Part shown: piece after piece, positions 6,937-63,707 of the stretch
How positions within the stretch are numbered: position 1 is the stretch's first letter
How the letters are laid out: each line of letters begins with the position of its first letter
Virus record (IMG/VR): IMGVR_UViG_3300017560_000307
Strand: one strand, 5' to 3'
DNA: 64,000 nucleotides
DNA from: a virus
Lineage: Duplodnaviria > Heunggongvirae > Uroviricota > Caudoviricetes
Program-made: the position numbers and the translations under genes
The notes under the pieces: generated by a model
Database searches by the model: none
Seen by the model: the letters and a program-made list of their open reading frames with translations, nothing else
What the model was told of the DNA's origin: nothing

Positions 6937-9399
6937 GTGGCCCAGAACAAAGTCGAAATACAACTCAGCGCCGTTGATAACGCCACTTCCACCTTCAAGA
7001 GTGTAGGAAGTGGAATTAGTGAGCTCAGTGGCCGGATCCAGGAGCTCAAGAAGATCCAGCAGGATGCCGCGCGAAGTATCCTCACCGCTCCCGATACCTC
7101 TTCATGGCTGGAATCCAAGGCTGACTTGAAGAAAGTCACCGAGGACCTCTCTTTGGCAGAGAAGGAGCTGTCCGAGACAACAAAGAGCCTTGGCATCGCG
7201 CAGGACGGCACCGCGCAGTCTTCTTCATCCCTGTTCAAGACATTCACGGTGGGGACGTTGGCGGCGAATGCCATTCAAAAGGGGATCCAACTGGCGACTG
7301 ATGCCATCAAGGCCTCGATAGATGCTGCATCCAACTACGAACGCTCACTGATGGGTCTCAATTCCGCCGGTGCGGCCTTCGGATTTACTGCTAACCAGAT
7401 GAATGCAGCCATAAAGCAAGTCACAGACGATGGCCTACTCGGCTTCTCAACTGCCGCCGTGGCCCTCAAGACACTTCTATCCACCGGTATGGATATAGAT
7501 ACCGCCACAATGTTAATGGCTCGCTTCAAGGATGAAGCTGCGTTTGGTCGTAAGGAGACTCTGACCTATGGTCAAGCAGTGGAAAACCTGGCGCAAGCGT
7601 ATAAGACGCAGAGTTCCACCTTGGGTGATGCTGCTGGTCATACCGATAACTTCTCAAATGCTCTTGAAGTCGGTGCTGCCGCCCTCGGCAAAACCGTTGA
7701 GCAACTCACCGCTGCTGAGACAGAGCAGGCAAAGCTCATCGGCTACATGCAGCAAGGTGCTTATACTGCTGGCGATGCCGCTGTATATATGGATACCTAT
7801 GCAGGCTCAGTCGCTCGGATGGAAGCTGAAGGACAGAAAGCATCGGTTTCGTTGGGCCAAGTGCTTATGCCGGCCGTGGAGTTCACCACTGGGGCTTTTG
7901 CGGACATGCTGCAAAGTGTGAATAAATCAAGCAAAGGTATAGAGATATTCCAGGGGTCGCTCGTCACGATAGTTGCCATCGCCCAGACTGCGATTCAGGT
8001 CTTTGTCGGTCTTGGCCAGGCAATTATGGGGACAGTCCAGGCGATTCTGAGCCGGGATATGAATAAACTCAATGAGGGAATCAATCGCGCCACTCAAGGA
8101 TTCGTCAATATCTGGGAGAATTACGACACCCAGATGAAGAAGATCATGAATAGTGGGGCAGATGCCGCCGCCAATGCTCACAAAGAGTCACTTGATCGCA
8201 TGACTCAAGAAAACGGTGCCGCTTCAGTAAAGATGCAACAACAAATTGACGACGCCACTCGTCAATATCAACGTTCGATGGAGAGCCGTAATCGGTCATT
8301 CCAGGAATCAGTAAAAGACATGGTTATCGCGCACCGCGATAAGTCTCGATCCATTCAGTCGGATATTGCCAAGGAGCAGGCCGCTTACGACGCTGCCAAC
8401 CTCAAGCGCAAAGAGTCCTACGAGGATGACATCGCCTCCCTTGAAGAACGTCACCTGGACAAGGTCCAAGACATCGAGGCGCAAATTGCCGAAGAGCGTG
8501 AGAAGGGACTGGTAGTTGATGGAATTCTTTACCAGGAAGCCAATGAGAAAAAGATAGCCAAGCTGGAAGACCAACTGCGAAATGAGACAGAGACTTACCA
8601 GAAGTCAATAGATAAGCGAAAGGCCCAATACAGCGAAGATGTCTCCGCAGATAAGAAGCGGCATGACGAGAAGCTCTCACAGTTACAGATATCTCTCAAT
8701 GAAGAGCTAGTTATCCTCAACCGTCACCGCGCTGATGTGGCCCAGGTTGGTGAGGCGGTCAAGGAGGACGATCTTTCACGTCTCAAACGCAGCTTTGCCG
8801 AGCAGAACACTGAGGCCGCCCGCAACTACGCAGAACAGCTGGAGAGGATACGAAAGCAAGGTAACGAGTTGGGGATCAGTTATACCAACTCCATGAAGGA
8901 TGGCGTGAGTGCCGGATCTGATAAAGTCAAGGATCAGATTGCCTTCGATTTGAGGCGCGCTGTTTCATCCGGCGGGTTGGTCATTGGTGACGGTGGCAAG
9001 GCTGCAGCCGACACTTTTTGGACTAAATTCAATAAGAGCATCGGTGATGGTGTTGACGAGGCAGGAGAGGGGATAAAGCTCAACCTCGAAAAGGCGATCA
9101 AGTCTGGAGGGCTGGGTATTTCCGGTGGTGTGGATATCTCCAACATCATCTTTGGTGCTACCCCGCGCGCCGGTGGCGGTACCACACGCCCAGGCGAAAC
9201 CACACTGGTTGGCGAACGTGGGCCGGAAATCGCCCAGTTCCCGGCCGGCACCAGGATCATCCCGACCCAGCAAACCCGGCAGATCCTCTCCCAGCAACCT
9301 CAAGGGCGACAAACCACCGTCAATATCGGCACGGTCGTCAACCAAAGCAATATGGATCCCGACGCCTTTTTCAGCGCCCTGGCCTGGCAAATCAGATAG
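6937..9399 (+). CDS. tail tape measure protein
   Basis: 820 aa with a GTG start and SD AGGAGG. Long coiled-coil, Ala/Gln-rich sequence with a Gly-rich C-terminus. Follows the G/GT chaperone. Confidence 0.8.
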   Translation: MAQNKVEIQLSAVDNATSTFKSVGSGISELSGRIQELKKIQQDAARSILTAPDTSSWLESKADLKKVTEDLSLAEKELSETTKSLGIAQDGTAQSSSSLFKTFTVGTLAANAIQKGIQLATDAIKASIDAASNYERSLMGLNSAGAAFGFTANQMNAAIKQVTDDGLLGFSTAAVALKTLLSTGMDIDTATMLMARFKDEAAFGRKETLTYGQAVENLAQAYKTQSSTLGDAAGHTDNFSNALEVGAAALGKTVEQLTAAETEQAKLIGYMQQGAYTAGDAAVYMDTYAGSVARMEAEGQKASVSLGQVLMPAVEFTTGAFADMLQSVNKSSKGIEIFQGSLVTIVAIAQTAIQVFVGLGQAIMGTVQAILSRDMNKLNEGINRATQGFVNIWENYDTQMKKIMNSGADAAANAHKESLDRMTQENGAASVKMQQQIDDATRQYQRSMESRNRSFQESVKDMVIAHRDKSRSIQSDIAKEQAAYDAANLKRKESYEDDIASLEERHLDKVQDIEAQIAEEREKGLVVDGILYQEANEKKIAKLEDQLRNETETYQKSIDKRKAQYSEDVSADKKRHDEKLSQLQISLNEELVILNRHRADVAQVGEAVKEDDLSRLKRSFAEQNTEAARNYAEQLERIRKQGNELGISYTNSMKDGVSAGSDKVKDQIAFDLRRAVSSGGLVIGDGGKAAADTFWTKFNKSIGDGVDEAGEGIKLNLEKAIKSGGLGISGGVDISNIIFGATPRAGGGTTRPGETTLVGERGPEIAQFPAGTRIIPTQQTRQILSQQPQGRQTTVNIGTVVNQSNMDPDAFFSALAWQIR

Positions 9400-27864: not shown

Positions 27865-27937
27865 AGCGGGTTGGAGTAACAGTAACTCGGAAGGCTCATA
27901 ATCTTCGTCTATCTCGGTGCAAATCCGAGACCCGCAA
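27865..27937 (+). tRNA. tRNA-Met: tRNA-Met/Ile2 (CAT)
   Basis: Cloverleaf by hand. D-arm GAGT/ACTC, anticodon loop CTCATAA, T-arm CTCGG-TGCAAAT-CCGAG, CCA encoded. Mismatch at acceptor pair 1:72. Confidence 0.6.
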
Positions 27938-27946
27938 CCAATATAC

Positions 27947-28017
27947 CGACTGATGGCCGATTGGCTAGGCACGCGATTGCAAACCGTGGAATCCCCGTTC
28001 GATTCGGGGTCAGTCGT
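27947..28017 (+). tRNA. tRNA-Cys: tRNA-Cys (GCA)
   Basis: Acceptor CGACTGA/TCAGTCG, anticodon loop TTGCAAA, T-arm CCCCG-TTCGATT-CGGGG, CCA encoded. Short D-stem. Confidence 0.55.
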
Positions 28018-28021
28018 CCAT

Positions 28022-28094
28022 ACGCTCATAGCTCAGTGAATAGAGCAGTTGCCTTCGAAGCAGCAGGTCGGAGGTTTGAATCCTTCTGGGCGTA
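28022..28094 (+). tRNA. tRNA-Arg: tRNA-Arg (TCG)
   Basis: D-arm AGCTCAGTGAATAGAGC, anticodon loop CTTCGAA, T-loop TTTGAAT, CCA encoded. Confidence 0.65.
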
Positions 28095-28099
28095 CCAAT

Positions 28100-28172
28100 G
28101 CTTCCTTAGCTCATCAGGTAGAGCGGCGCACTTGTAATGCGCTGGTACGGGGTTCGAGTCCTCGAGGAAGCC
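28100..28172 (+). tRNA. tRNA-Thr: tRNA-Thr (TGT)
   Basis: Acceptor GCTTCCT/AGGAAGC, anticodon stem-loop GCGCA-CTTGTAA-TGCGC, T-loop TTCGAGT. Confidence 0.65.
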
Positions 28173-28176
28173 CCCT

Positions 28177-28250
28177 CTTGGCGTAGAGTAGCGGACGTAC
28201 TCGCTTCCCTTGGAAGGAAGAAATCGCTCGTTCGAATCGAGCCGCCTTGA
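28177..28250 (+). tRNA. tRNA-Pro: tRNA-Pro (TGG), acceptor stem with two U-U mismatches
   Basis: D-arm GAGT/ACTC, anticodon CTTCC-CTTGGAA-GGAAG, T-arm GCTCG-TTCGAAT-CGAGC, CCA encoded. Acceptor pairs 2:71 and 3:70 are mismatched, so it may be a pseudo-tRNA. Confidence 0.45.
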
Positions 28251-28254
28251 CCAT

Positions 28255-28326
28255 GGGTCTCTAGCACAACGATAGTGCAGCATCCCTGCAAGATGAAGGT
28301 TCTCAGTTTGAATCTGAGGAGATCCA
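28255..28326 (+). tRNA. tRNA-Ala: tRNA-Ala (TGC)
   Basis: Acceptor GGGTCTC/GAGATCC, D-arm GCAC/GTGC, anticodon loop CCTGCAA (C at position 33), T-arm CTCAG-TTTGAAT-CTGAG, CCA encoded. Confidence 0.5.
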
Positions 28327-28333
28327 CCAATTC

Positions 28334-28407
28334 GGGCTCGTCGCATAGCGGCCTATTGCAGCGGACTCTTAATCCGCCTTTCCCTGGTTCAAATCCAGGC
28401 GAGCTCA
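28334..28407 (+). tRNA. tRNA-Lys: tRNA-Lys (CTT)
   Basis: Anticodon stem-loop GCGGA-CTCTTAA-TCCGC, T-arm CCTGG-TTCAAAT-CCAGG, CCA encoded. Confidence 0.65.
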
Positions 28408-28414
28408 CCAGTTT

Positions 28415-28485
28415 GGGGATGTAGTGAAATGGCATCACGCTTGGTTTTCAACCAGGTATCCAGGGGTCAGAACCCTGCTTCCCTA
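28415..28485 (+). tRNA. tRNA-Glu: tRNA-Glu (TTC)
   Basis: D-arm GTGA/TCAC, anticodon CTTGG-TTTTCAA-CCAGG, T-arm CAGGG-GTCAGAA-CCCTG, CCA encoded. One acceptor mismatch. Confidence 0.5.
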
Positions 28486-28491
28486 CCATGT

Positions 28492-28564
28492 GTCCCTGTC
28501 GTCTAGAGGACCAGGACACCACCCTCTCAAGGTGGAAACCGGGGATCGTGACCCCGTGGGGATA
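28492..28564 (+). tRNA. tRNA-Glu: tRNA-Glu (CTC)
   Basis: Bacterial tRNA-Glu-like D-arm GTCTAGAGGACCAGGAC, anticodon CCACC-CTCTCAA-GGTGG, T-arm CGGGG-ATCGTGA-CCCCG, CCA encoded. Three G-U pairs in the acceptor. Confidence 0.5.
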
Positions 28565-28571
28565 CCAATAT

Positions 28572-28643
28572 GCCTTCCTAGCTCAGAGGCAGAGCAGCGT
28601 CTTTACACGGCGACGGTCGGGATTTCAAAATTCTCGGAGGGTA
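28572..28643 (+). tRNA. tRNA-Val: tRNA-Val (TAC)
   Basis: D-arm AGCTCAGAGGCAGAGC, anticodon loop TTTACAC, CCA encoded. Imperfect T-stem. Confidence 0.45.
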
Positions 28644-28650
28644 CCAGTGA

Positions 28651-28722
28651 CCCGTTGTGATGAAATTGGCATCATGCCTCCCTGTTAAGGAGAGATTCTA
28701 GGTTCAAATCCTAGCATCGGGG
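28651..28722 (+). tRNA. tRNA-Asn: tRNA-Asn (GTT)
   Basis: D-arm ATGA/TCAT, anticodon CCTCC-CTGTTAA-GGAGA, T-arm CTAGG-TTCAAAT-CCTAG, CCA encoded. Confidence 0.55.
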
Positions 28723-28728
28723 CCATAT

Positions 28729-28800
28729 ATCCGCGTAGCTCAAGGGACAGAGTGCCACTCTGCGAAGGTGATGATGCATGTTCGATTCATGCCGTGGATA
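28729..28800 (+). tRNA. tRNA-Arg: tRNA-Arg (GCG)
   Basis: Acceptor ATCCGCG/CGTGGAT, anticodon loop CTGCGAA, T-arm GCATG-TTCGATT-CATGC, CCA encoded. Confidence 0.5.
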
Positions 28801-28806
28801 CCATTT

Positions 28807-28878
28807 GCGATCATAGCTCAGTGGTAGAGCGCAGCCTTGTCACGGCTGAGGCCGGCGGATCGTTCCCGCCTGGTCGCG
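28807..28878 (+). tRNA. tRNA-Asp: tRNA-Asp (GTC)
   Basis: D-arm AGCTCAGTGGTAGAGC, anticodon CAGCC-TTGTCAC-GGCTG, T-arm GGCGG-ATCGTTC-CCGCC, CCA encoded. Confidence 0.65.
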
Positions 28879-29187
28879 CCAGTTTGGATTGGTTGACTTG
28901 TAAAGCAATATGTGTTCAAATCTTAGCCCCTGAACCAAGTCTTGGATTGGTGCTCCACAGATTTATGCCCCTCATGGGATATGTCGCACGCCCTTTGGTA
29001 ACGTCCACTCAAACATCCCATCATCAAGACATCTTTCCATCTTCCTGTCTTCCTGTCTTTCCATCTAAACATCAAAACGTTTTGCCTCCCATACATCTTG
29101 TCGTCAGTAATGCTTGCCATCCAGCAGGCAAAACAGCCTCCCTTTCCTTCCGATCCTCCGCCCCGCCCTATGTCTTTTTGACACATC

Positions 29188-55068: not shown

Positions 55069-55905
55069 GTGAACAGGCGCGAGCGTGGCGATCAGCTACA
55101 GGAGCAGCTTTCCGAGGCTATCACTGAGCTGGAACAACAGCTCAATGAAGGCCATACCGAGGGGTTTTTACGCCTCTTAGAATTTTATAGTCGGTTCCGC
55201 AAGTACTCCCCAGGTAACGTCATGTTGATCCTGATGCAGCGACCTGATGCATCATTGTGTGCTGGTTTCAGGCAGTGGGAGAAGCTCGGCTACCAGGTGC
55301 GAAAAGGTGAGTCTGCTGTATGGGTTCGGGGTCCGTACTTCAAGGATGTCACGGATCCAGAGACTGGAGAGGTTGAGAACCGTCTGATTGGCTGGCTTGC
55401 CTTGCCAATCTTTGATGTGTCTCAGCTCGAAGGCGATGTAGAGATTCCGTCGTTTACCCATCCACTGGAGGGTGACTACGATGGTCTGTACACCATGGCC
55501 CGGGTAGGAATCGGTGTCCAGGGAGTCCTGGTCATTGAGGATGACCTGCCCTCAACTATTCATGGTATGGCTTCAGGCGACAAAATCACTATCAACAGGA
55601 ATCTGTCTGACAGTGAGAAGTTCCTTTGCCTCCTCCATGAAGCGGCCCATATCGTACTCAAGCATTCAGAGCGGCATGAGGAGACCTCCAAGCAACAGAG
55701 AGAGTTGTGCGCGGAAGCCACAAGTTACCTGCTTGCCAAACTCTTCGGCCTCGATAACCCCTTCAGCAGGGATTACATCATTGCCTACAACGGAACCGTC
55801 GAAGCTCTGCATGAGAGCCTGAGTGAGATTCACCTGGCTGTGCGGAAGATATCCGGCTGGCTGGAGATTGAAGCTCCATCACAGGAGCAATCAATCGCCG
55901 CCTAG
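55069..55905 (+). CDS. ArdC-like antirestriction protein (N-terminal ssDNA-binding domain + C-terminal HExxH metalloprotease)
   Basis: YSPGNVMLI is an ArdC-N-like motif. LHEAAHIVLKH is a zinc-protease motif. Confidence 0.55.
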   Translation: MNRRERGDQLQEQLSEAITELEQQLNEGHTEGFLRLLEFYSRFRKYSPGNVMLILMQRPDASLCAGFRQWEKLGYQVRKGESAVWVRGPYFKDVTDPETGEVENRLIGWLALPIFDVSQLEGDVEIPSFTHPLEGDYDGLYTMARVGIGVQGVLVIEDDLPSTIHGMASGDKITINRNLSDSEKFLCLLHEAAHIVLKHSERHEETSKQQRELCAEATSYLLAKLFGLDNPFSRDYIIAYNGTVEALHESLSEIHLAVRKISGWLEIEAPSQEQSIAA

Positions 55906-56798: not shown

Positions 56799-57032
56799 GT
56801 GACCAATGTAAGCATTGCGGGGAACGGAACTGGAGTTGTCCGGAGGAGGGGAATGAAAATCACGATTGGGGGCAACAACGAATCAATGAGCCACACTATT
56901 AGTGACGGAGCGACTGTCGCTAAAGTGCTTCAGGTTTTCGTCGGTCTACTCATCGCCTATGGCTTTCATCCAAGCAGAATCAATCAGTATTTTGTGGACG
57001 AAGAGTCGCCACTGGAGTGGAACACGGAGTAG
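56799..57032 (+). CDS. hypothetical small protein
   Basis: 77 aa with weak RBS. May be part of a longer non-coding transcript. Confidence 0.3.
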   Translation: MTNVSIAGNGTGVVRRRGMKITIGGNNESMSHTISDGATVAKVLQVFVGLLIAYGFHPSRINQYFVDEESPLEWNTE

Positions 57033-57049
57033 TCAGTCTCTTGCGCTGT

Positions 57050-58180
57050 GTTTGTTCGGACTCCACCAAGCCGGCAAGCACAGCGGAGGGGATTGAAGCC
57101 AGAGAGCTTCCACAGTCATCACGGCACAGTGTTAGGTCTGTTGTGTGTTTTGGTACGAGATGGTCGTACTCCGTGGGGTTGTTGCCTAAGACGTAAAAAC
57201 TCCCTGCCGTCAAAACGGCACCTCTCCGACGAGATTTTCCATGTCTGTGTCGGGCTTGCCTAGAACCCTTGATCGGGGAAGCGGACATGATGAGCCAGCA
57301 ACCTGCCTTCATGGCGGGGATGTGGCGGATTAGCTTCGGCGGCTGCCTACTGGTTCGCTGGTTGGACTCTGGAGGGGATAGTGCTCACCTTCGTCAAAGG
57401 GTGTTGGGCCGTCCGGACGCCTCTCCAGATTCGAGCCAGGTAACTCAAGAAAACCCACCTCATATGCGCGTGTGCAGAGGGTAAAACAGACTTCGGAGGT
57501 CTGGGGGAGGAACCGCGGAAGCGATCGACACACGCTCGAAACATCCTGGCCCGAATTTTGAAAGATGGAGTGAGAGTTGTCGCTAGACAACACTCCGGTG
57601 AGGCGGTTCGCTACCGCCATCGCAACCGGTGGGCGTTCTGGTGAGCACCTAGGGCAACAAGCCGAGGAGCTAAGTCCCTCGGGGCAATTCCTCTCCATCT
57701 TTCAGTGTTTGAACGTTCTCGCCAACCTCAAAAAGTGAACCGAGCGACCGGGGTGTCTCCCGATCACTCAGTCGTCCGGTGGTTTATTCCACCAGGCGAC
57801 TTGAGACACCAGGTTCGGGGTTGGCGAGAGGGCCCAGAATCCTAGCCAACTGCTTGATATAATGCATACAGCCATGCAGTACCCGGCCAGCGTTTTGAAA
57901 CACAATCGCTTCAAGCCAGACAAGAGCTTCCGAGTACTGCCGGGAGCTCTTTTTTGTTCCCAGGCCGACCGCAATCAGCAGTACCGGTGAACACAGCAAT
58001 GTCTGATGGATGCGGGATCTAAGGGTAGGTCCATAGGCAAAAACGGTTTGAACTTTCGCTCCCCTGAGCATGTGCCTGCCGCTGGATGTCCCCTGGTTGT
58101 ACCAGGTCGACAGACCAGCCTCTGCTTTGGGGCGTGAGAGCTTAATCCCTCTCTAATCGTCCCTTCACAACCTCATATTC
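57050..58180 (+). ncRNA. ORF-free, hairpin-rich region (candidate structured RNA or cis-element), internal terminator at 57924-57956
   Basis: Only short ORFs that conflict with each other. CTTCGG tetraloop hairpins, a tRNA T-arm-like GGCGG-TTCGCTA-CCGCC at about 57596-57612, and a terminator AGAGCT-n15-AGCTCT-TTTTTT. Confidence 0.2.
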
Positions 58181-58232
58181 TATGATGTCTAGATGTTTAG
58201 ATGTCAAGATGTTTAAGCTTCTAGATGTCTAA
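58181..58232. promoter_or_regulatory. dense array of AGATGT/ACATCT operator-like repeats
   Basis: ATGTCTAGATGTTTAGATGTCAAGATGTTTAAGCTTCTAGATGTCTAAACATCC, directly upstream of the gene at 58253. Confidence 0.5.
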
Positions 58233-58252
58233 ACATCCAGGAGGGTTTTGCC

Positions 58253-59340: not shown

Positions 59341-59678
59341 GCAATACGTGCTTCTTCTGCGGAAGGTCTGTGCGTAAGGGCAAAAACACCTCCAAGCATC
59401 ACATTATGCCCAAGAGGTATGGAAGAGAGACCATCCTGCACCTGGCGTGCAACACATGTCATCAACGATGGCATCGAGAGATCGACAATCCACAGCTGGA
59501 CTTCATCTACTACGCGGTAGTGATGATTCTGGTCAACTGGGGTCGGGGAATTTACTCCCCGGCCCTTTTTCTTTGGATGAGTGTGCGAATATCTCACCTA
59601 TTGACAACGATACATAATAGATGTATAAGTAAGATGTACATACAAAAATACATAGAATGCTTGGGCAGTGAGAGGTAA
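59175..59678 (+). CDS. HNH endonuclease-like protein (C-terminal 100 aa); start uncertain, ORF overlaps the SSB-like gene
   Basis: CFFCGRSV…HHIMPKRYGRETILHLACNTCHQRWH. Confidence 0.4.
   Translation: MAQHPSVGITGRACPRPRASRRDNHRRRQGEGQQLRERGRRDGRTDRRCRQSLRLGNTCFFCGRSVRKGKNTSKHHIMPKRYGRETILHLACNTCHQRWHREIDNPQLDFIYYAVVMILVNWGRGIYSPALFLWMSVRISHLLTTIHNRCISKMYIQKYIECLGSER
59601..59629 (+). promoter_or_regulatory. sigma70-type promoter, family copy (TTGACA-N17-TATAAG) driving the tRNA-like array and Ro60 operon
   Basis: CTATTGACAACGATACATAATAGATGTATAAGTAAGATGTAC. Confidence 0.55.
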
Positions 59679-60190
59679 GGGTTACTTCGCTGATCTTTGG
59701 TGATCAACAACACTTGAAATGTTGCCTATACTGGTTCGATTCCAGTCGATGTCCGCAAGGATGTTTCCACCCTCCTCACCTTCCTCCCAGGCATTTGAAA
59801 ACACTTCACTCAGGTAGTGAGGGGTAGGGTTACTTCGGATGTTAACCGAGAGGTCGCAGGTTCGAGTCCTGTCTGGACGAAAGTTCAGTAGCTCAGTTGG
59901 TTAGAGCGCTTTTACACTCTCCCCACCTTTCTCCTGAGTGTTTGAAATCACAGCCCAGCGGGCAGTGAGAGATTGGGTTACTTCGCTTTTAACGACGTTG
60001 TCGTTGGTTCGAATCCAACTGGGGCCACCTAGGGCCCCATAGCTCAGTGGTAGAGCACGTACATTTCCCACCTCGGTTTTCTCCCGCTGGACTGATATTC
60101 GGTGACTACCCTTCATCTTCGGATGAGGCGACTTAATACCTCTCAACTTTCTCCCAAGGAGTTGAGGGGTAGCTATCGAATACCCACTAA
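59660..60190 (+). ncRNA. array of four tRNA-like / Y-RNA-like modules (candidate YrlA-type Ro60-binding RNAs)
   Basis: Units at about 59660-59760, 59790-59880, 59881-60030 and 60031-60190. Each carries a box GTGAGRGGTWGGGTTACTTCG (three exact GGGTTACTTCG copies), a TTTGAAAHCAC element, and a T-arm-like GGTTCGA(A/T/G)TCC. Units 3 and 4 start with canonical tRNA acceptor plus D-arm (AGCTCAGTTGGTTAGAGC, AGCTCAGTGGTAGAGC) but lack an anticodon arm and a matching 3-prime acceptor. Confidence 0.45.
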
Positions 60191-60216
60191 TCACTATTAC
60201 CTTTCGTAGGAGGCAC

Positions 60217-61698
60217 ATGTCACGTTTCAATTCCACAACAGTCGGCACCCGCACCACAAATTTTGCAGGCGGTCGCGCATACAAGGAGGATGCGAAGCTT
60301 GAAATAGCCTCCATTCTTCTGAATTCATTTGTCACAGACCAATACTACCGATCAGCTGACAACACTATGAGGCGTCTCGTCGAATTGATTGAAACCCTGC
60401 CGGATAAGCGCTTCGCTGCTCAGGCTGCTCTCTTCGCCCGAACCAAGTACAATCTGCGCTCGATTAGCCACGTGGCCGCCGGTGAGGTTGCCCGACTGGT
60501 CAAGGGTGAGCAATGGACCAAGCGATTCTTCGCCGCAGTTGTCCAGCGCCCTGATGACGCCACAGAGATCCTTTCCTACTACACAACCAAATACGGCAAG
60601 CCGATTCCGAACTCTCTAAAGAAGGGATTGGCAGCTGGTTTGACCAAGTTTGACGGCTACCAGCTGGCTAAATACCGGGGTGAAGACAAAACGTTGTCGC
60701 TCATTGACCTGGTTAACATCACCCACCCGGTTCCGTCAGCCAAGAATACTGAGGCGCTCAAACAACTCATTGAGGGCACACTAAAGAACACCGACACCTG
60801 GGAAGCCAAACTGACTGAGGCTGGAAAGTCGGCCGAGTCCGATGAGGACAAGGCGGATCTGAAGGCTGAGGCCTGGGCTGAACTGATTACCAACCGCAAG
60901 CTCGGTTACATGGCTACATTGCGTAACCTAAGGAATTTGGTTGAACAGGTAAAAGACGAGAGCGTCATCAAGCAGGCGCTAGAAACCCTGGCCGACCCAA
61001 ACCAGGTTCGTCGCTCCCGTGTCCTGCCATTCCGCTTCTACACCGCGTATCAGCAGATGAGTCAGGTCTCCGGCGCCAATAAGGTCTTGAAGGCCCTGTC
61101 CACCGCACTCGACCATTCCGTCGGAAATCTGCCCGAGATGCCAGGAAAGACGTTGGTTGTGATCGATCACTCCGGCTCAATGGACAGCCGTATGAGTGGC
61201 AACTCCCAGGCAACGATGTTCCAGACTGGAGCCCTGCTGGGTGTGTCCCTGGCTAAGTCTCAGGACGCCGATCTGATTTACTTTGGTGACACTGCCCGCT
61301 ATTTCACCTTCAACCCGGCCGACAGCATCTTGAGCATCATGATGGCTCTTGAGGAGGCCAATCGCTGGGGCGGTGCTACAAGCGTTGGCCACGGCACCAA
61401 CTTTGAAGCTGCCTTCAATACGGCGACCAAAGCATACGACCGCATCGTTATCTTCTCTGATATGCAGGGTTGGATGGGCTATCGCACACCAACCACAGCC
61501 TTCAACGCGTATAAGAAGCGCACCGGGGCAAACCCAACAGTCTTCTCAGTCGACCTGGCCGGCTACGGCACACTGCAATTCCCTGAGGATCGCGTATTCT
61601 GCCTGGCAGGGTTCAGTGAAAAGACGCTGGAGTTATTACCCAAGCTCGAAGTTGACAAGAACGCGCTGGTTCATGAGATTGAGGAGGTGGAGGTATGA
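60217..61698 (+). CDS. rsr: Ro60-related protein (TROVE domain + C-terminal vWA/MIDAS), Rsr ortholog
   Basis: The N-terminus FAGGRAYKEDAKLE…KRFAAQAALFARTKYNLRSISHVAAGEV aligns with the Ro60 TROVE pattern. C-terminal MIDAS motif VVIDHSGSMDS…IVIFSDMQG. SD GTAGGAGG. Confidence 0.75.
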   Translation: MSRFNSTTVGTRTTNFAGGRAYKEDAKLEIASILLNSFVTDQYYRSADNTMRRLVELIETLPDKRFAAQAALFARTKYNLRSISHVAAGEVARLVKGEQWTKRFFAAVVQRPDDATEILSYYTTKYGKPIPNSLKKGLAAGLTKFDGYQLAKYRGEDKTLSLIDLVNITHPVPSAKNTEALKQLIEGTLKNTDTWEAKLTEAGKSAESDEDKADLKAEAWAELITNRKLGYMATLRNLRNLVEQVKDESVIKQALETLADPNQVRRSRVLPFRFYTAYQQMSQVSGANKVLKALSTALDHSVGNLPEMPGKTLVVIDHSGSMDSRMSGNSQATMFQTGALLGVSLAKSQDADLIYFGDTARYFTFNPADSILSIMMALEEANRWGGATSVGHGTNFEAAFNTATKAYDRIVIFSDMQGWMGYRTPTTAFNAYKKRTGANPTVFSVDLAGYGTLQFPEDRVFCLAGFSEKTLELLPKLEVDKNALVHEIEEVEV

Positions 61699-62369
61699 AC
61701 CCCATCCCTTTTATCCTCCTCAACTTCGCCGGTATTCTCACCCTCTGGGTGTATATCTACCGTCTGGAGAGTAAACAGAATCACCTGCTCAACCGGAAAT
61801 CCCCAGAGTTCCCAGACCTACGCAAACCCTTCATAGATCTGCAGGAGCGCATCACCTCCGAAGCTGAAGAGACTCGTAGTCAGTCATCCAGTCATGCCAA
61901 GAACAATCAGACAGCAGTGAAGATGCTAACCGGGGTGGTGAAGAAACTTCCGTTGGCCGACGAATTGGCCGGAGTCATCTCCACAGAAGCCACTTCAGTC
62001 GTTGAGGCCACCCAGTCGAATATCCAGGAAGACGGCCAGAAGACGAGGGATGCCATTGCGGCCGAACACAAGAAGACCCGGGAACGCATCGCCCAGGTAA
62101 AGACCCGAATGGCGGATGATGAGAAGGACGATCAGAAGGACAAAGCCAAGGTTCGACGCACTAAGGCGGCTCAAAAGCGTATCGCAGAAGCCCTGGATGC
62201 TGGTGCCAAGGTGAATGTCACCACCGACCCATCACTTCCCGAGGGCACTATGGTCCTTCGAGATGAAGAGACTGGTGATCAGGTAACGATCACTGGAGTC
62301 ACCGTGGAAGGCATCAAGGAAGTAGCCAAGAAGACAACACAGAAGAAGAAGCGTAAGACTTCCAAGTAG
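61695..62369 (+). CDS. membrane-anchored coiled-coil protein (Lys-rich C-terminus)
   Basis: N-terminal TM IPFILLNFAGILTLWVYIY. ATGA overlap with rsr. Confidence 0.45.
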   Translation: MNPIPFILLNFAGILTLWVYIYRLESKQNHLLNRKSPEFPDLRKPFIDLQERITSEAEETRSQSSSHAKNNQTAVKMLTGVVKKLPLADELAGVISTEATSVVEATQSNIQEDGQKTRDAIAAEHKKTRERIAQVKTRMADDEKDDQKDKAKVRRTKAAQKRIAEALDAGAKVNVTTDPSLPEGTMVLRDEETGDQVTITGVTVEGIKEVAKKTTQKKKRKTSK

Positions 62370-62432: not shown

Positions 62433-63707
62433 ATGAAGTTACAGGCACCAGAGAACGCAAACTACGCCGCAGTCGTCGTGAAAATTACTGCCATCAATCA
62501 ACTTGAGGGATCCGACAACATCGTCGGTACTCCACTTATCGGATTCCAGGCCATCGTTGGCAAGAGCACCCAGGTAGGGGATATTGGCATTGTCTTCCCG
62601 GCGGAAACCCAGCTAAGTGATGAGTTTTGTCGAGAAAATAGTCTTTACCGACACAGTGACAAGAATAAGGACCAGAGCGCCAAAGGCTACCTGGAAGATA
62701 ATCGCCGGGTAAAAGCCATGAAGTTCCGCGGCAACCGCTCTGACTGCCTCTTTATGCCCTTGAACTCACTGGAATTCACCGGCGCAAAGGTGAAAGAACT
62801 CCAGGTTGGTGATACTTTCGATGAACTGAATGGTCACAAGCTGTGCGAGAAATACGAAATTAAGCGTCGATCGAGCGGGAACGCTAATCTGGTAAAGAAA
62901 CCCCGATTTGTCCGCGTAGATGCTAAGTTCCTTCCCGAACACCTGGACTCCGATAACTTCTTCCGCAATGTCGACCGAATCCTGCCAGGTACTCAGGTGG
63001 TGGTCACCCAAAAGTTGCATGGGACAAGCTCACGCATCGGCCATACGATTGTCACCCGAAAACTAAACATCTTAGAGAAGGCTCTGAAGCGTCTAGGACT
63101 ACGCATCGAGACTCATGAGTACGATTATGTGTTTGGATCCCGAAAGGTCATCAAGGACGTTCACAACCCCGATGGTGGATTCTATTCGTCCGACATCTGG
63201 ACTGAATCAGGCCAGCGTCTGGAGGGCATTCTGCCCCAGAACTTCATCCTCTATGGTGAGTTGGTAGGGTACACCCCTGATGGTGGAGACATCCAGAAGG
63301 GATATCACTACGGCCAACCGATGGGAGTCAATGAGCTTTACATTTACCGCGTCGCATTCATCAACAATCAGGGGCGTCTGACTGATCTCTCCTGGGACCA
63401 GGTGAGGTTATTTTGCGAAGAGCTTGGGCTGAAGCATGTACCAGAACTGTGGCGTGGCAAGATCGATGAGTTCGACGTCCAGGCATTCATGGATCGCCAC
63501 TATGCCGAGACTGGATACACCCACGCAATCCCGCTAGATGACAACGGTACGGTTGACGAGGGTGTTTGTATCCGGGTTGATGGTCTTACTCCTTATATTC
63601 TAAAAGCCAAGAGCCCAGAATTCTTGAGTTTTGAGTCGAAGATGCTGGATGAGGAAGCAACAGATCTCGAGGCAGAGCAGTCTCAAAGCGAGGAGGCCAA
63701 TGTCTGA
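62433..63707 (+). CDS. ATP-dependent RNA ligase of the Rnl2/Rnl5 (DraRnl-like) type with N-terminal extension
   Basis: Motif I KLHGTS (KxHG as in T4 Rnl2), motif IV-like LYGELVGY, motif V ILKAKSPEF. An N-terminal module of about 190 aa precedes the nucleotidyltransferase domain. Confidence 0.55.
   Translation: MKLQAPENANYAAVVVKITAINQLEGSDNIVGTPLIGFQAIVGKSTQVGDIGIVFPAETQLSDEFCRENSLYRHSDKNKDQSAKGYLEDNRRVKAMKFRGNRSDCLFMPLNSLEFTGAKVKELQVGDTFDELNGHKLCEKYEIKRRSSGNANLVKKPRFVRVDAKFLPEHLDSDNFFRNVDRILPGTQVVVTQKLHGTSSRIGHTIVTRKLNILEKALKRLGLRIETHEYDYVFGSRKVIKDVHNPDGGFYSSDIWTESGQRLEGILPQNFILYGELVGYTPDGGDIQKGYHYGQPMGVNELYIYRVAFINNQGRLTDLSWDQVRLFCEELGLKHVPELWRGKIDEFDVQAFMDRHYAETGYTHAIPLDDNGTVDEGVCIRVDGLTPYILKAKSPEFLSFESKMLDEEATDLEAEQSQSEEANV

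What the first reader, a model, noticed from the sequence alone, without database searches (positions are those of the whole stretch)
59660..60190. Four degenerate tRNA-like repeats with a conserved GGGTTACTTCG box and T-arm mimics
The units share an ordered set of elements. These are a polypyrimidine tract, TTTGAAAHCAC, the box CAGTGAGRGRTWGGGTTACTTCG, and a GGTTCGANTCC T-loop-like arm. Units 3 and 4 begin exactly like tRNAs (acceptor plus D-arm). After the D-arm they diverge into 80-100 nt insertions, and none has a 3-prime acceptor complementary to its own 5-prime end. The 3-prime end of unit 3 (TGGGGCC) instead pairs with the 5-prime start of unit 4 (GGCCCCA), forming a hairpin. This is the architecture described for bacterial YrlA-type Y RNAs (a tRNA-like domain plus a Ro-binding stem), not bona fide tRNAs, and here it is present as a tandem array.
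Basis: seen in the sequence. Interest (0 to 1): 0.85.

Follow-up and report, generated by a model that had tools for sequence, protein, structure and literature searches.

The report
Phage Ro60 gene with three Y RNAs
The repeats are three tandem genes for tRNA-mimicking "Y RNAs", the known small-RNA partners of the Ro60 protein encoded immediately downstream in this phage, so this is an unannotated example of an already known system and not a new kind of element.

Summary
There are three full repeat units of about 148 nt: Y1 59655-59796, Y2 59804-59943 and Y3 59951-60094. A fourth element, a long hairpin at 60096-60182, is of a different kind. Each full unit pairs a purine-rich 5' strand (AGUGAGRG...GGGUUACUUCG) with the polypyrimidine 3' strand (...CUUUCUCC) to form a long bulged stem around a tRNA-like domain. 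The ORF that starts 35 nt after the array (60217-61698) is a Ro60/Rsr ortholog with TROVE and Ro60-vWA domains. Y2 and Y3 have the published YrlA order (V, T, closed acceptor-like hairpin, D). Y1 has the native tRNA order (D-like, anticodon-like, T, then a GCAA-capped hairpin). Covariation in relatives supports both architectures. It was always on the same strand as rsr, and about a third of loci carry 2-5 copies. Phage Ro60 with upstream Y-like RNAs has been studied experimentally (Thermus phage phiLo, 2025). Verdict: the YrlA-type Y RNA interpretation is supported, and this is a new member of a known kind. Unresolved points are the fourth element, the variant Ro-site motif and the function in infection.

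The parts
59539..59572 (+). Terminator-like G+C hairpin plus T run that ends the upstream HNH-endonuclease gene (59343-59560). It marks the start of a separate transcription unit.
   Evidence: Terminator scan. HNH_5/HNH Pfam hits.
59601..59629 (+). Promoter-like TTGACA, 17 nt, TATAAG inside an AT-rich stretch about 25 nt upstream of Y1. Inferred promoter for the Y RNA array and rsr.
   Evidence: Read directly. The consensus scan did not report it because the last base of the second hexamer is G. No terminator-like site on the + strand between here and the end of rsr.
59655..59796 (+). Y1, a Y RNA of the 'native-order' type. Outer stem 59655-59665 / 59786-59796. Box 59679-59689. D-like hairpin 59692-59705. 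Anticodon-like hairpin 59708-59724 (5 bp, loop CUUGAAA). T arm 59730-59746. CGA, then a GCAA-capped hairpin 59748-59765. Polypyrimidine 3' strand 59767-59785.
   Evidence: Single-sequence fold, z = -3.3. Model R1 built without it scores it at 31.3 bits, E 4e-7. Six counterparts in other phage contigs, with covariation in the anticodon-like and T stems.
59804..59943 (+). Y2, a YrlA-order Y RNA. Outer stem 59807-59814 / 59933-59940. Box 59827-59837. V hairpin 59835-59849. T arm 59856-59872. Closed acceptor-like hairpin 59873-59888 (6 bp, GAAA loop). D arm 59891-59907. 3' strand CUCUCCCCACCUUUCUCC.
   Evidence: Rfam YrlA partial hit 59849-59910, 42.3 bits, E 8e-8. Fold. Alignment A1 and covariation. 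R1 score 128 bits, as a seed member.
59951..60094 (+). Y3, a YrlA-order Y RNA. Outer stem 59955-59962 / 60083-60090. Box 59975-59985. T arm 60003-60019. 7-bp acceptor-like hairpin 60020-60039 (UGGGGCC / GGCCCCA, loop ACCUAG). D arm 60042-60056. 3' strand with UUUUCUCC.
   Evidence: Rfam YrlA partial hit 59995-60061, 40.5 bits, E 2.7e-7. Fold z = -3.2. A1 covariation. R1 score 113 bits, as a seed member.
60096..60182 (+). Fourth element, an 87-nt extended hairpin with no box, T arm or D arm. It contains a Y-stem-like pair in reversed order (UACCUCUCAACUUUCUCC ... GUUGAGGGGUA, 60137-60171). Nature unresolved: a hairpin-type second-class Y RNA, a decayed unit, or an rsr leader structure.
   Evidence: Fold z = -4.4 to -4.6. 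Inverted repeat I3 and shared 10-mer D10. R1 gives 7 bits, not significant. No counterpart found elsewhere.
60217..61698 (+). rsr, a Ro60 ortholog (493 aa) with a TROVE ring and a vWA domain carrying a DxSxS motif. Inferred protein partner of Y1-Y3. AGGAGG lies at 60208-60213.
   Evidence: Pfam TROVE 9e-23 and vWA_Ro60 1e-8. phrog_850 1.6e-45. PDB 9L5Y/9KOP phage phiLo Ro60 1.7e-30 and 2NVO D. radiodurans Rsr 1e-9.
61695..62369 (+). 224-aa ORF of unknown function. Its start overlaps the rsr stop, so it is probably co-transcribed.
   Evidence: ORF list. No Pfam or PHROG hit. No homolog in any retrieved locus.
62433..63707 (+). RNA ligase (424 aa) downstream on the same strand. Possibly a functional partner, but the linkage is specific to this phage.
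   Evidence: Pfam RNA_ligase 1.6e-17. phrog_968 1.2e-102. Absent from all 254 other rsr-bearing loci held.

Best explanation
The region encodes three tandem noncoding Y RNAs of the bacterial/phage YrlA family, followed by one further structured element. They lie directly upstream of, and probably in one transcript with, the phage's own Ro60 (Rsr) gene.

Shown here:
- Each RNA folds so that its purine-rich 5' end and polypyrimidine 3' end form a long stem. The stem is interrupted by a sequence-conserved internal loop (5' YAGUGAG opposite 3' UUUUCUCC).
- The stem is capped by the GGGUUACUUCG box and a tRNA-like domain.
- In Y2 and Y3 the domain is a circularly permuted tRNA core: V hairpin, a short junction-closing helix, T arm, closed acceptor-like hairpin, D arm.
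- In Y1 the domain is a cloverleaf in native order (D-like, anticodon-like, T), followed by a capped hairpin.

Inferred from the characterised relatives (D. radiodurans, Salmonella, M. smegmatis, Thermus phage phiLo):
- The precursor is cut into RNAs of about 135-145 nt.
- The conserved stem and loop is the Rsr-binding module.
- The tRNA-like module recruits a tRNA-binding or RNA-degrading effector, such as host PNPase. The phage would thereby redirect or protect RNA turnover or repair in the infected cell.
- Y3's 7-bp acceptor-like stem, with an A-CC-like loop, makes it a candidate RNase P substrate, as shown for M. smegmatis YrlA.
- The neighbouring RNA ligase suggests a link to RNA repair, but that link is not general.
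For: Context:
- The Ro60/Rsr ortholog starts 35 nt after the array.
- No terminator-like site lies between the array and rsr.

Family signal:
- Rfam YrlA matches the T/AS/D core of Y2 and Y3 at E 8e-8 and 2.7e-7.
- The box contains the YUAY (UUAC) element that Chen et al. 2014 report before the V loop.

Linkage:
- 233 of those 360 loci hold a detectable rsr. It is always on the same strand, and the RNA is upstream in 201.

Structure:
- In 17 YrlA-order units, 89.9% of cells are paired, against 33-52% with slid partners.
- 22 of 34 pairs show double changes, and 0 of 500 shuffles reach the covariation score.
- The junction-closing helix is paired in 16 of 16 sequences and covaries.
- In 7 native-order units, 94% of cells are paired against 25-45% slid. 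All 5 anticodon-like stem pairs and 4 of 5 T-stem pairs covary.

Array conservation:
- Phage contig L018, whose Rsr is 50% identical, has the same order: a native-order unit, then YrlA-order units, then rsr.
- Y1 is closer to L018a (94/131) and Y3 to L018b (102/138) than the window's units are to each other.

Precedent:
- Chen et al. 2014 (PMC4201824) reported YrlA-like RNAs near rsr in 254 bacteria and 22 phages, with at least two Y RNAs per studied species.
- Hu et al. 2025 (PMC12135203) showed that phage phiLo Ro60 binds two upstream Y-like RNAs and host PNPase.
Against: - Neither Y2 nor Y3 reaches Rfam's YrlA gathering score (42 and 40 bits against 69), and only model positions 23-86 align. 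This is weak evidence, because none of 18 other box-bearing, mostly rsr-linked loci reached it either.
- The published 5' motif GNCGAAN0-1G is not literally present. The equivalent position reads YAGUGAGRG.
- Expression, processing, Rsr binding and the effector are all inferred. No transcript data exist for this phage.
- The RNA ligase linkage is not seen in any other locus, so an RNA-repair role is speculative.
- The fourth element fits no model and has no counterpart.
Confidence: 0.85

Rival explanations
1. The stretch is a cis-acting structured 5' leader of the rsr mRNA and does not give rise to separate stable RNAs. Rsr, or a tRNA-binding factor, would bind the tRNA-like and Ro-site mimics in the leader to control rsr translation or stability.
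For: - No terminator-like site lies between the array and rsr, and there is only one promoter-like site upstream.
- The last structured element ends 35 nt before the start codon.
- The fourth element carries a Y-stem-like helix closed by a loop. That is what a binding-site mimic inside an mRNA might look like.
Against: - In other loci the same RNAs lie up to about 2 kb from rsr, and in 32 of 233 cases downstream of its start. In L388 and L392 they lie about 1.7 kb beyond the rsr start. A leader role cannot be general.
- In Salmonella, M. smegmatis and phage phiLo the homologous or analogous RNAs are discrete Rsr-bound species.
- Co-transcription followed by processing is known for the Salmonella rsr-yrlBA-rtcBA operon.
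Confidence: 0.07
2. They are tRNA genes or tRNA pseudogenes: degenerate, intron-containing, or permuted precursors that are matured into working tRNAs. This would extend the phage's 13-tRNA set.
For: - ARAGORN calls 59663-59756 (undetermined) and 59806-59881 (tRNA-Asn GUU).
- T arms, D arms and 7-nt anticodon-like loops are tRNA-like.
- The first unit of L018 scores 49 bits on the tRNA model over positions 5-66.
- Y3 has a 7-bp acceptor-like stem with an A-CC-like loop.
Against: - The Rfam tRNA model stays below threshold (21.9, 20.6 and 17.9 bits against 29), with non-standard acceptor pairs.
- No unit has a 5' end complementary to its own 3' end in tRNA register.
- Covariation supports the long Ro-type stem and the closed acceptor hairpin instead.
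- The strict same-strand linkage to rsr is not a property of tRNA genes.
- The phage's genuine tRNAs sit in a separate array at 27865-28881 and score 40-63 bits.
Confidence: 0.03
3. On the fourth element only: it is a decayed remnant of further repeat units (the 3' strand of one unit fused to the 5' strand of the next) with no function of its own. It would not be a fourth Y RNA.
For: - 60144-60172 aligns with a Y2 3' strand followed directly by a 5' strand. This rests on repeat D3 at 73% identity and the exact 10-mer TGAGGGGTAG, D10.
- It has no box, T arm or D arm.
- R1 scores it at 7 bits.
- Nothing comparable occupies that position in relatives. L018 has an odd tRNA-Asn-like gene there.
Against: - It folds much better than shuffles (z -4.4 to -4.6).
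- Chen et al. [quoted passage not shown] This element resembles that description.
Confidence: 0.45

Closest known systems
YrlA Y RNAs (S. Typhimurium, M. smegmatis, mycobacteriophage ET08; Rfam RF02553; Chen et al. 2014, PMC4201824; structure PDB 6CU1, bioRxiv 10.1101/312249)
   Same: - Encoded next to rsr on the same strand.
- 5'/3' ends form the Ro-binding stem.
- YUAY (here UUAC) precedes a V hairpin.
- Near-invariant T arm (GGUUCGAnUCC) and D arm (UAGCUCA..GAGC) flank a closed acceptor-like hairpin, i.e. a circularly permuted tRNA-like core.
- A short helix closes the junction.
- Several copies per locus occur.
- Y3 shares the 7-bp acceptor-like stem that made M. smegmatis YrlA an RNase P substrate.
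   Different: - The 5' motif is YAGUGAGRG instead of GNCGAAN0-1G.
- The 3' strand carries a conserved UUUUCUCC tract found in only about 5% of retrieved units.
- The Rfam score is below threshold, and only the core aligns.
- Y1 does not have the YrlA order at all.
Thermus phage phiLo Ro60 with Yrl1 and Yrl2 (Hu et al. 2025, PMC12135203; PDB 9KOP, 9L5Y)
   Same: - A phage-encoded Ro60 with more than one Y-like RNA gene immediately upstream.
- phiLo Ro60 is the best solved-structure match to the window's Rsr (E 1.7e-30).
- It is an experimentally supported model: the protein binds the RNAs and assembles with host PNPase.
   Different: - As described in that paper, the phiLo RNAs are stem-bulge-stem RNAs with a CGAA motif and one or two hairpins. 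They are not described as tRNA-like.
- The proteins share only about 27% identity.
- The window has three tRNA-like RNAs plus a hairpin element.
D. radiodurans Yrn1
   Same: Like Y1, the tRNA-like features are in native order (D-like, anticodon-like, T) relative to the RNA's 5' end. The Ro-binding stem takes the place of the acceptor stem (Chen et al. 2014).
   Different: - Yrn1 has only a partial D arm and a 6-nt 'anticodon' loop, and it lacks the YrlA box.
- Y1 and its six counterparts have the GGUUACUUCG box and a 5-bp stem with a 7-nt loop of tRNA type (CU NNN AA/AC).
- They also have an invariant UCG:CGA three-pair remnant of the acceptor stem and an extra capped hairpin after the T arm.
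Genuine tRNAs and circularly permuted tRNA genes (red alga and archaeal examples cited in bioRxiv 10.1101/312249)
   Same: T arm, D arm and elbow nucleotides (GG in the D loop, UUCGA in the T loop). The permuted order with an initially closed acceptor stem is the same.
   Different: - There is no free acceptor end or CCA.
- A long Ro-type stem is inserted.
- The units are linked to rsr.
- The tRNA model scores are below threshold.
- There is no evidence of maturation to a tRNA.

Membership tests
YrlA-type Y RNA | Encoded within about 4 kb of a Ro60/Rsr (TROVE) gene, on the same strand | tested here: met
   rsr at 60217-61698 (+). Its start is 35-560 nt downstream of the units.
YrlA-type Y RNA | 5' and 3' ends pair to form a stem that carries the Ro-binding site | tested here: met
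   Outer and inner stems are predicted in all three units. They covary in 17 relatives: helix 1 has 5 of 6 pairs and helix 2 has 6 of 8 pairs with double changes. Actual binding to Rsr was not tested.
YrlA-type Y RNA | GNCGAAN0-1G motif near the 5' end | tested here: inconclusive
   The literal motif is absent. The equivalent position reads YAGUGAGRG. Among 348 short-gap units retrieved with the box and T arm, only 13 have a literal GNCGAA, while 117 have RGYGAR. The literal motif is therefore not universal in rsr-linked relatives.
YrlA-type Y RNA | Conserved YUAY at the start of the V region | tested here: met
   UUAC lies within GGGUUACUUCG in all three units.
YrlA-type Y RNA | T-like stem-loop, then a closed acceptor-like stem-loop, then a D-like stem-loop, in that order | tested here: met
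   Met for Y2 and Y3: Rfam YrlA alignment over model positions 23-86, and A1 covariation with the AS stem showing 7 of 7 pairs with double changes. Not met for Y1, which has the order D-like, anticodon-like, T, hairpin.
YrlA-type Y RNA | Reaches Rfam RF02553 gathering score (69 bits) | tested here: not met
   42.3 and 40.5 bits. The threshold also misses all 18 other box-bearing loci tested, including Streptosporangium, Nocardia and Paenibacillus. This reflects a narrow model and not exclusion from the family as Chen et al. defined it.
YrlA-type Y RNA | Bound by Rsr in vivo; T and D loops modified by TruB and DusA | not testable with these tools
   Needs pull-down and modification mapping.
tRNA | Acceptor stem formed by the RNA's own 5' and 3' ends; score above the tRNA model threshold | tested here: not met
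   RF00005 scores are 21.9, 20.6 and 17.9 bits against 29, with non-standard acceptor pairs. The ARAGORN calls at 59663-59756 and 59806-59881 rest on the V or anticodon-like hairpin plus the T arm.
Native-order (Yrn1-like) tRNA-like Y RNA | D-like, anticodon-like and T arms in tRNA order, enclosed by the Ro-type stem | tested here: met
   Met for Y1. Six counterparts exist (L018a, L388, L392, L396, L397, L402), with 94% of cells paired and covariation in the anticodon-like and T stems. Homology to D. radiodurans Yrn1 itself was not tested.
Hairpin-type second Y RNA (YrlB/Yrn2-like) | [quoted passage not shown] | tested here: inconclusive
   The fourth element is a long hairpin (z -4.4) with a CUUUCUCCC tract near its apex. 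It has no conserved counterpart and no recognisable 5' Ro motif.

The most novel reading that the evidence does not exclude
The array is a maintained set of functionally different tRNA mimics on one Ro60 scaffold, not three redundant copies.
- Y1 is a complete cloverleaf with an intact 7-nt anticodon-type loop. Published YrlA lacks an anticodon loop.
- Y2 is a closed permuted tRNA core.
- Y3 is a version that RNase P could cleave.
- The fourth element is a loop-closed copy of the Ro-site helix in the rsr leader, which could let Rsr feed back on its own synthesis.

Together with the adjacent RNA ligase and the phage's own tRNA set, this would be a phage module that engages several host tRNA-handling or tRNA-cleaving factors at once.
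Probability: 0.15. Interest if true: 0.6.

Novelty: new member of a known kind. Interest (0 to 1): 0.35.

Why it matters
It adds an unannotated phage example to the Ro60-Y RNA system, whose role during infection is still poorly understood.

Practical points:
- Rfam's YrlA threshold misses this locus and every other box-bearing locus tested. Annotated phage records such as the Xanthomonas phages leave the equivalent RNA unannotated. These RNAs are therefore systematically overlooked, and tRNA finders sometimes mis-call them.
- The simple box plus T-arm pattern, or the model built here, recovers hundreds of loci.

Biological points:
- Two tRNA-mimic topologies sit in one array, and the same order is conserved in a second phage whose Rsr is only 50% identical. 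This suggests the copies are not redundant.
- That gives concrete RNAs for testing which effectors a phage Ro60 particle recruits.

Tried and rejected
- Megablast of the locus against annotated phages found no match. Distant blastn matched only the T/AS/D core in Xanthomonas, Erwinia, Rhizobium and Listeria phages.
- Rsr-based retrieval from viral contigs gave 15 loci at 42-51% identity. They lack the box and have no Rfam hits at gathering score. The custom model finds only weak short Y-like stems upstream of rsr in four of them, so they were of little use for covariation.
- Rfam at gathering score found nothing in the region, and nothing for YrlA in 18 related loci. I rejected it as a membership criterion.
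- Searches for a counterpart of the fourth element failed. The pattern scan gave three hits inside coding DNA with no rsr, judged to be chance. Inspection of the last-unit-to-rsr gaps in 17 relatives showed nothing similar.
- The scan for the box followed by a D arm gave 41 hits. Most are chance matches in genes. Only six, including L018a, are genuine native-order units.
- The tRNA-with-intron reading was rejected on model scores and covariation.
- A general link between rsr and this RNA ligase was rejected: 0 of 254 loci.
- The 'long-gap' class as a whole is heterogeneous. It includes, for example, a distinct Bacteroidota subtype, so it was not treated as one family.
- The supplementary tables of Chen et al. 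2014 and the 2020 Annual Review were not available. I could not check whether native-order units or this sub-lineage were already listed there.
Full report
**What is in the sequence**

Window 59655-60182 lies between two features.
- Upstream is a small HNH-endonuclease gene (59343-59560). It ends in a terminator-like hairpin with a T run at 59539-59572.
- Downstream is a 493-aa ORF at 60217-61698.
- An AT-rich stretch holds TTGACA, 17 nt, TATAAG at 59601-59629, about 25 nt before the first repeat (read). The consensus scan did not list it because the second hexamer ends in G.

The repeat finder gives three copies of the box region at 59664, 59813 and 59961, spaced 149 and 148 nt apart, together with repeated polypyrimidine/TTTGAAA and T-arm segments. 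The pattern GTGAGRG-N3-4-GGGTTACTTCG occurs three times, against none in 100 shuffles. GGTTCGANTCC occurs three times, TAGCTCA twice and TTTGAAA twice.

**Correct unit register**

Folded alone, each unit of about 145 nt pairs its purine-rich 5' strand with the polypyrimidine tract at its 3' end. This gives a long interrupted stem around a multi-branched domain:
- Y1 59655-59796, z = -3.3
- Y2 about 59804-59943, z = -1.4
- Y3 59951-60094, z = -3.2

The TGGGGCC/GGCCCCA hairpin (60020-60039) is an internal hairpin of Y3 lying between its T arm (60003-60019) and D arm (60042-60056). The fourth element, 60096-60182, is a different thing: an 87-nt extended hairpin (z -4.4 to -4.6) with no box, T arm or D arm.

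**Context**

- The ORF at 60217-61698 has TROVE (9e-23) and Ro60-vWA (1e-8) domains.
- It matches phrog_850 'RNA-binding protein' at 1.6e-45.
- Its best solved-structure matches are the Ro60 of Thermus phage phiLo (9L5Y/9KOP, 1.7e-30) and D. radiodurans Rsr (2NVO, 1e-9).
- It is followed by an overlapping 224-aa ORF with no match, and by an RNA ligase (62433-63707).
- The window is a tailed-phage genome: minor tail protein, endolysin, DNA polymerase, and a separate array of 13 genuine tRNAs at 27865-28881.
- No annotated phage is close. The nearest Rsr, at 49% identity, is in a 635-kb uncultured phage.

**Family signal**

- With permissive thresholds, Rfam's YrlA model matches 59849-59910 (42.3 bits, E 8e-8) and 59995-60061 (40.5 bits, E 2.7e-7). 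The match covers model positions 23-86: T arm, closed acceptor-like hairpin, D arm.
- The tRNA model stays below its threshold (21.9, 20.6 and 17.9 bits against 29), with broken acceptor pairs.
- The two ARAGORN calls in the region are therefore false positives, driven by a hairpin with a 7-nt loop followed by a T arm.
- The YrlA hits are below Rfam's gathering score of 69. None of 18 other loci carrying the same box, from Streptosporangium, Nocardia, Paenibacillus and others, reached it either. That threshold is too narrow to decide membership.

**The box is a widespread rsr-linked element**

- Of these 360 loci, 233 contain a detectable rsr. It is always on the same strand as the RNA, and the RNA is upstream in 201 of them. 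The median distance is 350-630 nt.
- Exact boxes per locus: one in 245 loci, two in 85, three in 23, four in 6, five in 1. A profile search gives a similar picture.
- Tandem copies are thus common, and three is at the upper end.
- The consensus just 5' of the box is ..GGUGGCG.AGA..AC. This is the counterpart of the published GNCGAAN0-1G motif. The window's YAGUGAGRG is a minority variant (AGUGAR in 21 of 348 units).
- A 3' UUYCUCC tract at the matching position marks a sub-lineage of about 25 of 494 units.
- UUAC within the box is the YUAY element that Chen et al. 2014 place before the V loop.

**Structure of the YrlA-order units (Y2, Y3)**

I aligned 17 units of the sub-lineage: Y2, Y3 and 15 from other contigs and genomes. 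RNAalifold recovered the outer stem, inner stem, T arm, 7-bp acceptor-like stem and D arm.

With the V hairpin added, the pair count gave:
- 89.9% of cells paired, against 33-52% when partners are slid.
- 22 of 34 pairs with changes on both sides.
- No shuffle out of 500 reaching the covariation score.
- The D stem is invariant and so uninformative.
- The acceptor-like stem has all 7 pairs compensated.

A short helix between the pre-T linker and the segment after the D arm is paired in 16 of 16 sequences at its two central positions (AU 8, CG 7, GC 1; and GC 14, AU 2). It corresponds to the top of the 'anticodon stem' in the published YrlA structure.

Between the outer and inner stems both strands are conserved in sequence: 5' YAGUGAG and 3' UUUUCU. 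This is what one expects of a protein-binding site, but binding itself is inferred.

**Y1 is a second topology**

After the box, Y1 has these elements in order:
- a D-like hairpin (59692-59705)
- a 5-bp hairpin with loop CUUGAAA (59708-59724)
- a T arm (59730-59746)
- CGA
- a GCAA-capped hairpin (59748-65)
- the polypyrimidine strand

A model built without Y1 finds it at 31 bits (E 4e-7) through the shared stems, box and T arm.

Six other units share the layout: L018a, L388, L392, L396, L397 and L402. Four have rsr in the held DNA, always on the same strand. L397 has none in the DNA held, and L018a is linked as well.

In the seven-sequence alignment:
- 94% of cells are paired, against 25-45% slid.
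- All 5 anticodon-like stem pairs and 4 of 5 T-stem pairs covary.
- Y1's own D-like stem is one column out of register in that alignment.

The end of the box (UCG) and the CGA after the T arm are invariant. They could form a three-pair remnant of an acceptor stem, but being invariant this is untested. Rfam's tRNA model scores L018a at 49 bits over positions 5-66.

This order resembles what Chen et al. describe for D. radiodurans Yrn1. The broader 'long-gap' class is heterogeneous.

**The array is conserved**

- Contig L018 (Rsr 50% identical) has a mini Y-like RNA, then a native-order unit, then two YrlA-order units, then an odd tRNA-Asn-like gene, then rsr.
- Y1 is more similar to L018a (94/131), and Y3 to L018b (102/138), than Y1, Y2 and Y3 are to each other (88-97 of 134).
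- The margins are small. Together with the shared order, they suggest the array predates the split of the two phages and that the units are not interchangeable.
- Other relatives carry short Y-like RNAs with the stem and box but no tRNA-like insert: L016/L017, L128, and weakly L004-L006 and L008.
- The stem plus box therefore behaves as a module joined to varied inserts.

**The fourth element**

- It shares an exact 10-mer (TGAGGGGTAG) with Y2's 5' strand and a CAACTTTCTCC tract with the 3' strands, but in reversed order. The two pair as a local hairpin at 60137-60171.
- The same 3' segment can alternatively pair with 60107-60116 in the longer hairpin.
- The model does not recognise it (7 bits).
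- No relative has anything similar at that position, and a pattern scan returned only chance hits in coding DNA.
- It could be the hairpin-type second Y RNA that Chen et al. describe in every species studied, a decayed repeat junction, or an rsr leader structure. I cannot decide between these.

**Mechanism**

Shown here:
- genomic linkage to rsr
- conserved and covarying architecture
- tRNA-like cores of two topologies

Inferred from characterised systems:
- One transcript runs from the promoter-like site through rsr, since no terminator-like site was found.
- The transcript is processed into separate RNAs.
- Rsr binds the conserved stem and loop.
- The tRNA-like module recruits an effector. 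PNPase is the precedent in D. radiodurans, Salmonella and phage phiLo.
- The RNA ligase next door hints at RNA repair, but it is not linked to rsr in any of 254 other loci held.

**Comparison with what is known, and novelty**

- Chen et al. 2014 reported 355 YrlA-like RNAs near rsr in 254 bacteria and 22 phages. They reported multiple copies per locus where present, and at least two Y RNAs per studied species.
- Hu et al. 2025 showed that a phage Ro60 binds two upstream Y-like RNAs and host PNPase.
- The finding is therefore a new, unannotated member of a known kind.
- Possibly undescribed details are the AGUGAG/UUUUCUCC variant of the Ro-site region, the native-order unit with an intact anticodon-type loop and an extra capped hairpin, and the mixing of both topologies in one conserved array. 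I could not access the 2014 supplementary tables or the 2020 review to check.

Noticed in passing
window 56,950-57,900 (+), within an ORF-poor stretch of about 56,900-58,250: There is no ORF longer than 122 aa on either strand. The small ORFs have no Pfam hit, and there is no Rfam match at E<=0.1. The + strand folds at -393.7 kcal/mol against -344.8 for shuffles (z = -5.3), while the - strand gives z = -3.6. No similar DNA exists in annotated phages. This is a candidate large structured noncoding RNA about 1.7 kb upstream of the Y RNA array.
   Followed up: partly
window 27865-28881: A tight array of 13 genuine tRNA genes (Met, Cys, Arg, Thr, Pro, Ala, Lys, Glu x2, Val, Asn, Arg, Asp). Junctions between neighbouring tRNAs give partial false hits to the Y RNA model, as Chen et al. 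warned for dimeric tRNAs.
   Followed up: partly
window 59663-59756 and 59806-59881: ARAGORN calls a 'tRNA-???' and a 'tRNA-Asn (GUU)' inside Y1 and Y2. These are artefacts of the tRNA-like modules. Automatic annotation of this phage would probably list two spurious tRNAs here.
   Followed up: yes
window 55069-55905: A 278-aa protein with an ArdC N-terminal anti-restriction domain and a weak M78 peptidase (IrrE-like) domain. It is a likely anti-defence gene a few kb upstream of the locus.
   Followed up: no
18 related loci (L273, L260, L262, L266, L277, L282, L285, L288, L299-L301, L303, L309, L316, L317, L326, L330, L018): Rfam's YrlA model at its gathering score detects none of these box-bearing loci, which include cultured Streptosporangium, Nocardia and Paenibacillus. 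The curated threshold appears to miss most of the family as Chen et al. 2014 defined it.
   Followed up: partly
Xanthomonas/Xylella phages Tabio, Sopo, Tenjo, Usme and others (e.g. LR743528.1 38492-38577): A YrlA-like T/AS/D core lies about 170 bp upstream of their Rsr homolog, which is annotated as 'hypothetical protein'. The records have no annotated feature under the match.
   Followed up: no
L128 about 7040-7220; L016 11320-11395; L017 4430-4514 (-): Short Y-like RNAs of about 65-75 nt with the outer and inner stems, an AGUGA-type loop, the GGGUUACUUC box and a UUUUCUC strand, but no tRNA-like domain. L128 has two of them between its YrlA unit and rsr. In L016/L017 a further structured stretch of about 300 nt with a terminator follows before rsr.
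   Followed up: partly
L018 4479-4557: Between the Y RNA array and rsr, this phage contig has a tRNA-Asn(GUU)-like gene with a full acceptor stem and an encoded CCA. ARAGORN calls it, but Rfam's tRNA model at threshold does not. It sits where the window has its fourth hairpin element.
   Followed up: partly
L197, L219, L252, L271, L280, L284, L305, L311, L359, L378 (Mucilaginibacter and other Bacteroidota): A distinct box-bearing subtype: AAGGAUGCCGUAGAAACG-GGUUACUUCG, then two hairpins, a T arm and a conserved ..CCCCC..CGCCUGUUGCUCCUUAU 3' part with no D arm. It looks like a separate structural class of rsr-associated RNA.
   Followed up: no
window 59791-59804 and 59938-59951: The spacers after Y1 and Y2 share RUUUGAAAWCAC. 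This motif is not found in the spacers of the L018 array. It may be a processing site or a trace of recent duplication of the spacer.
   Followed up: no
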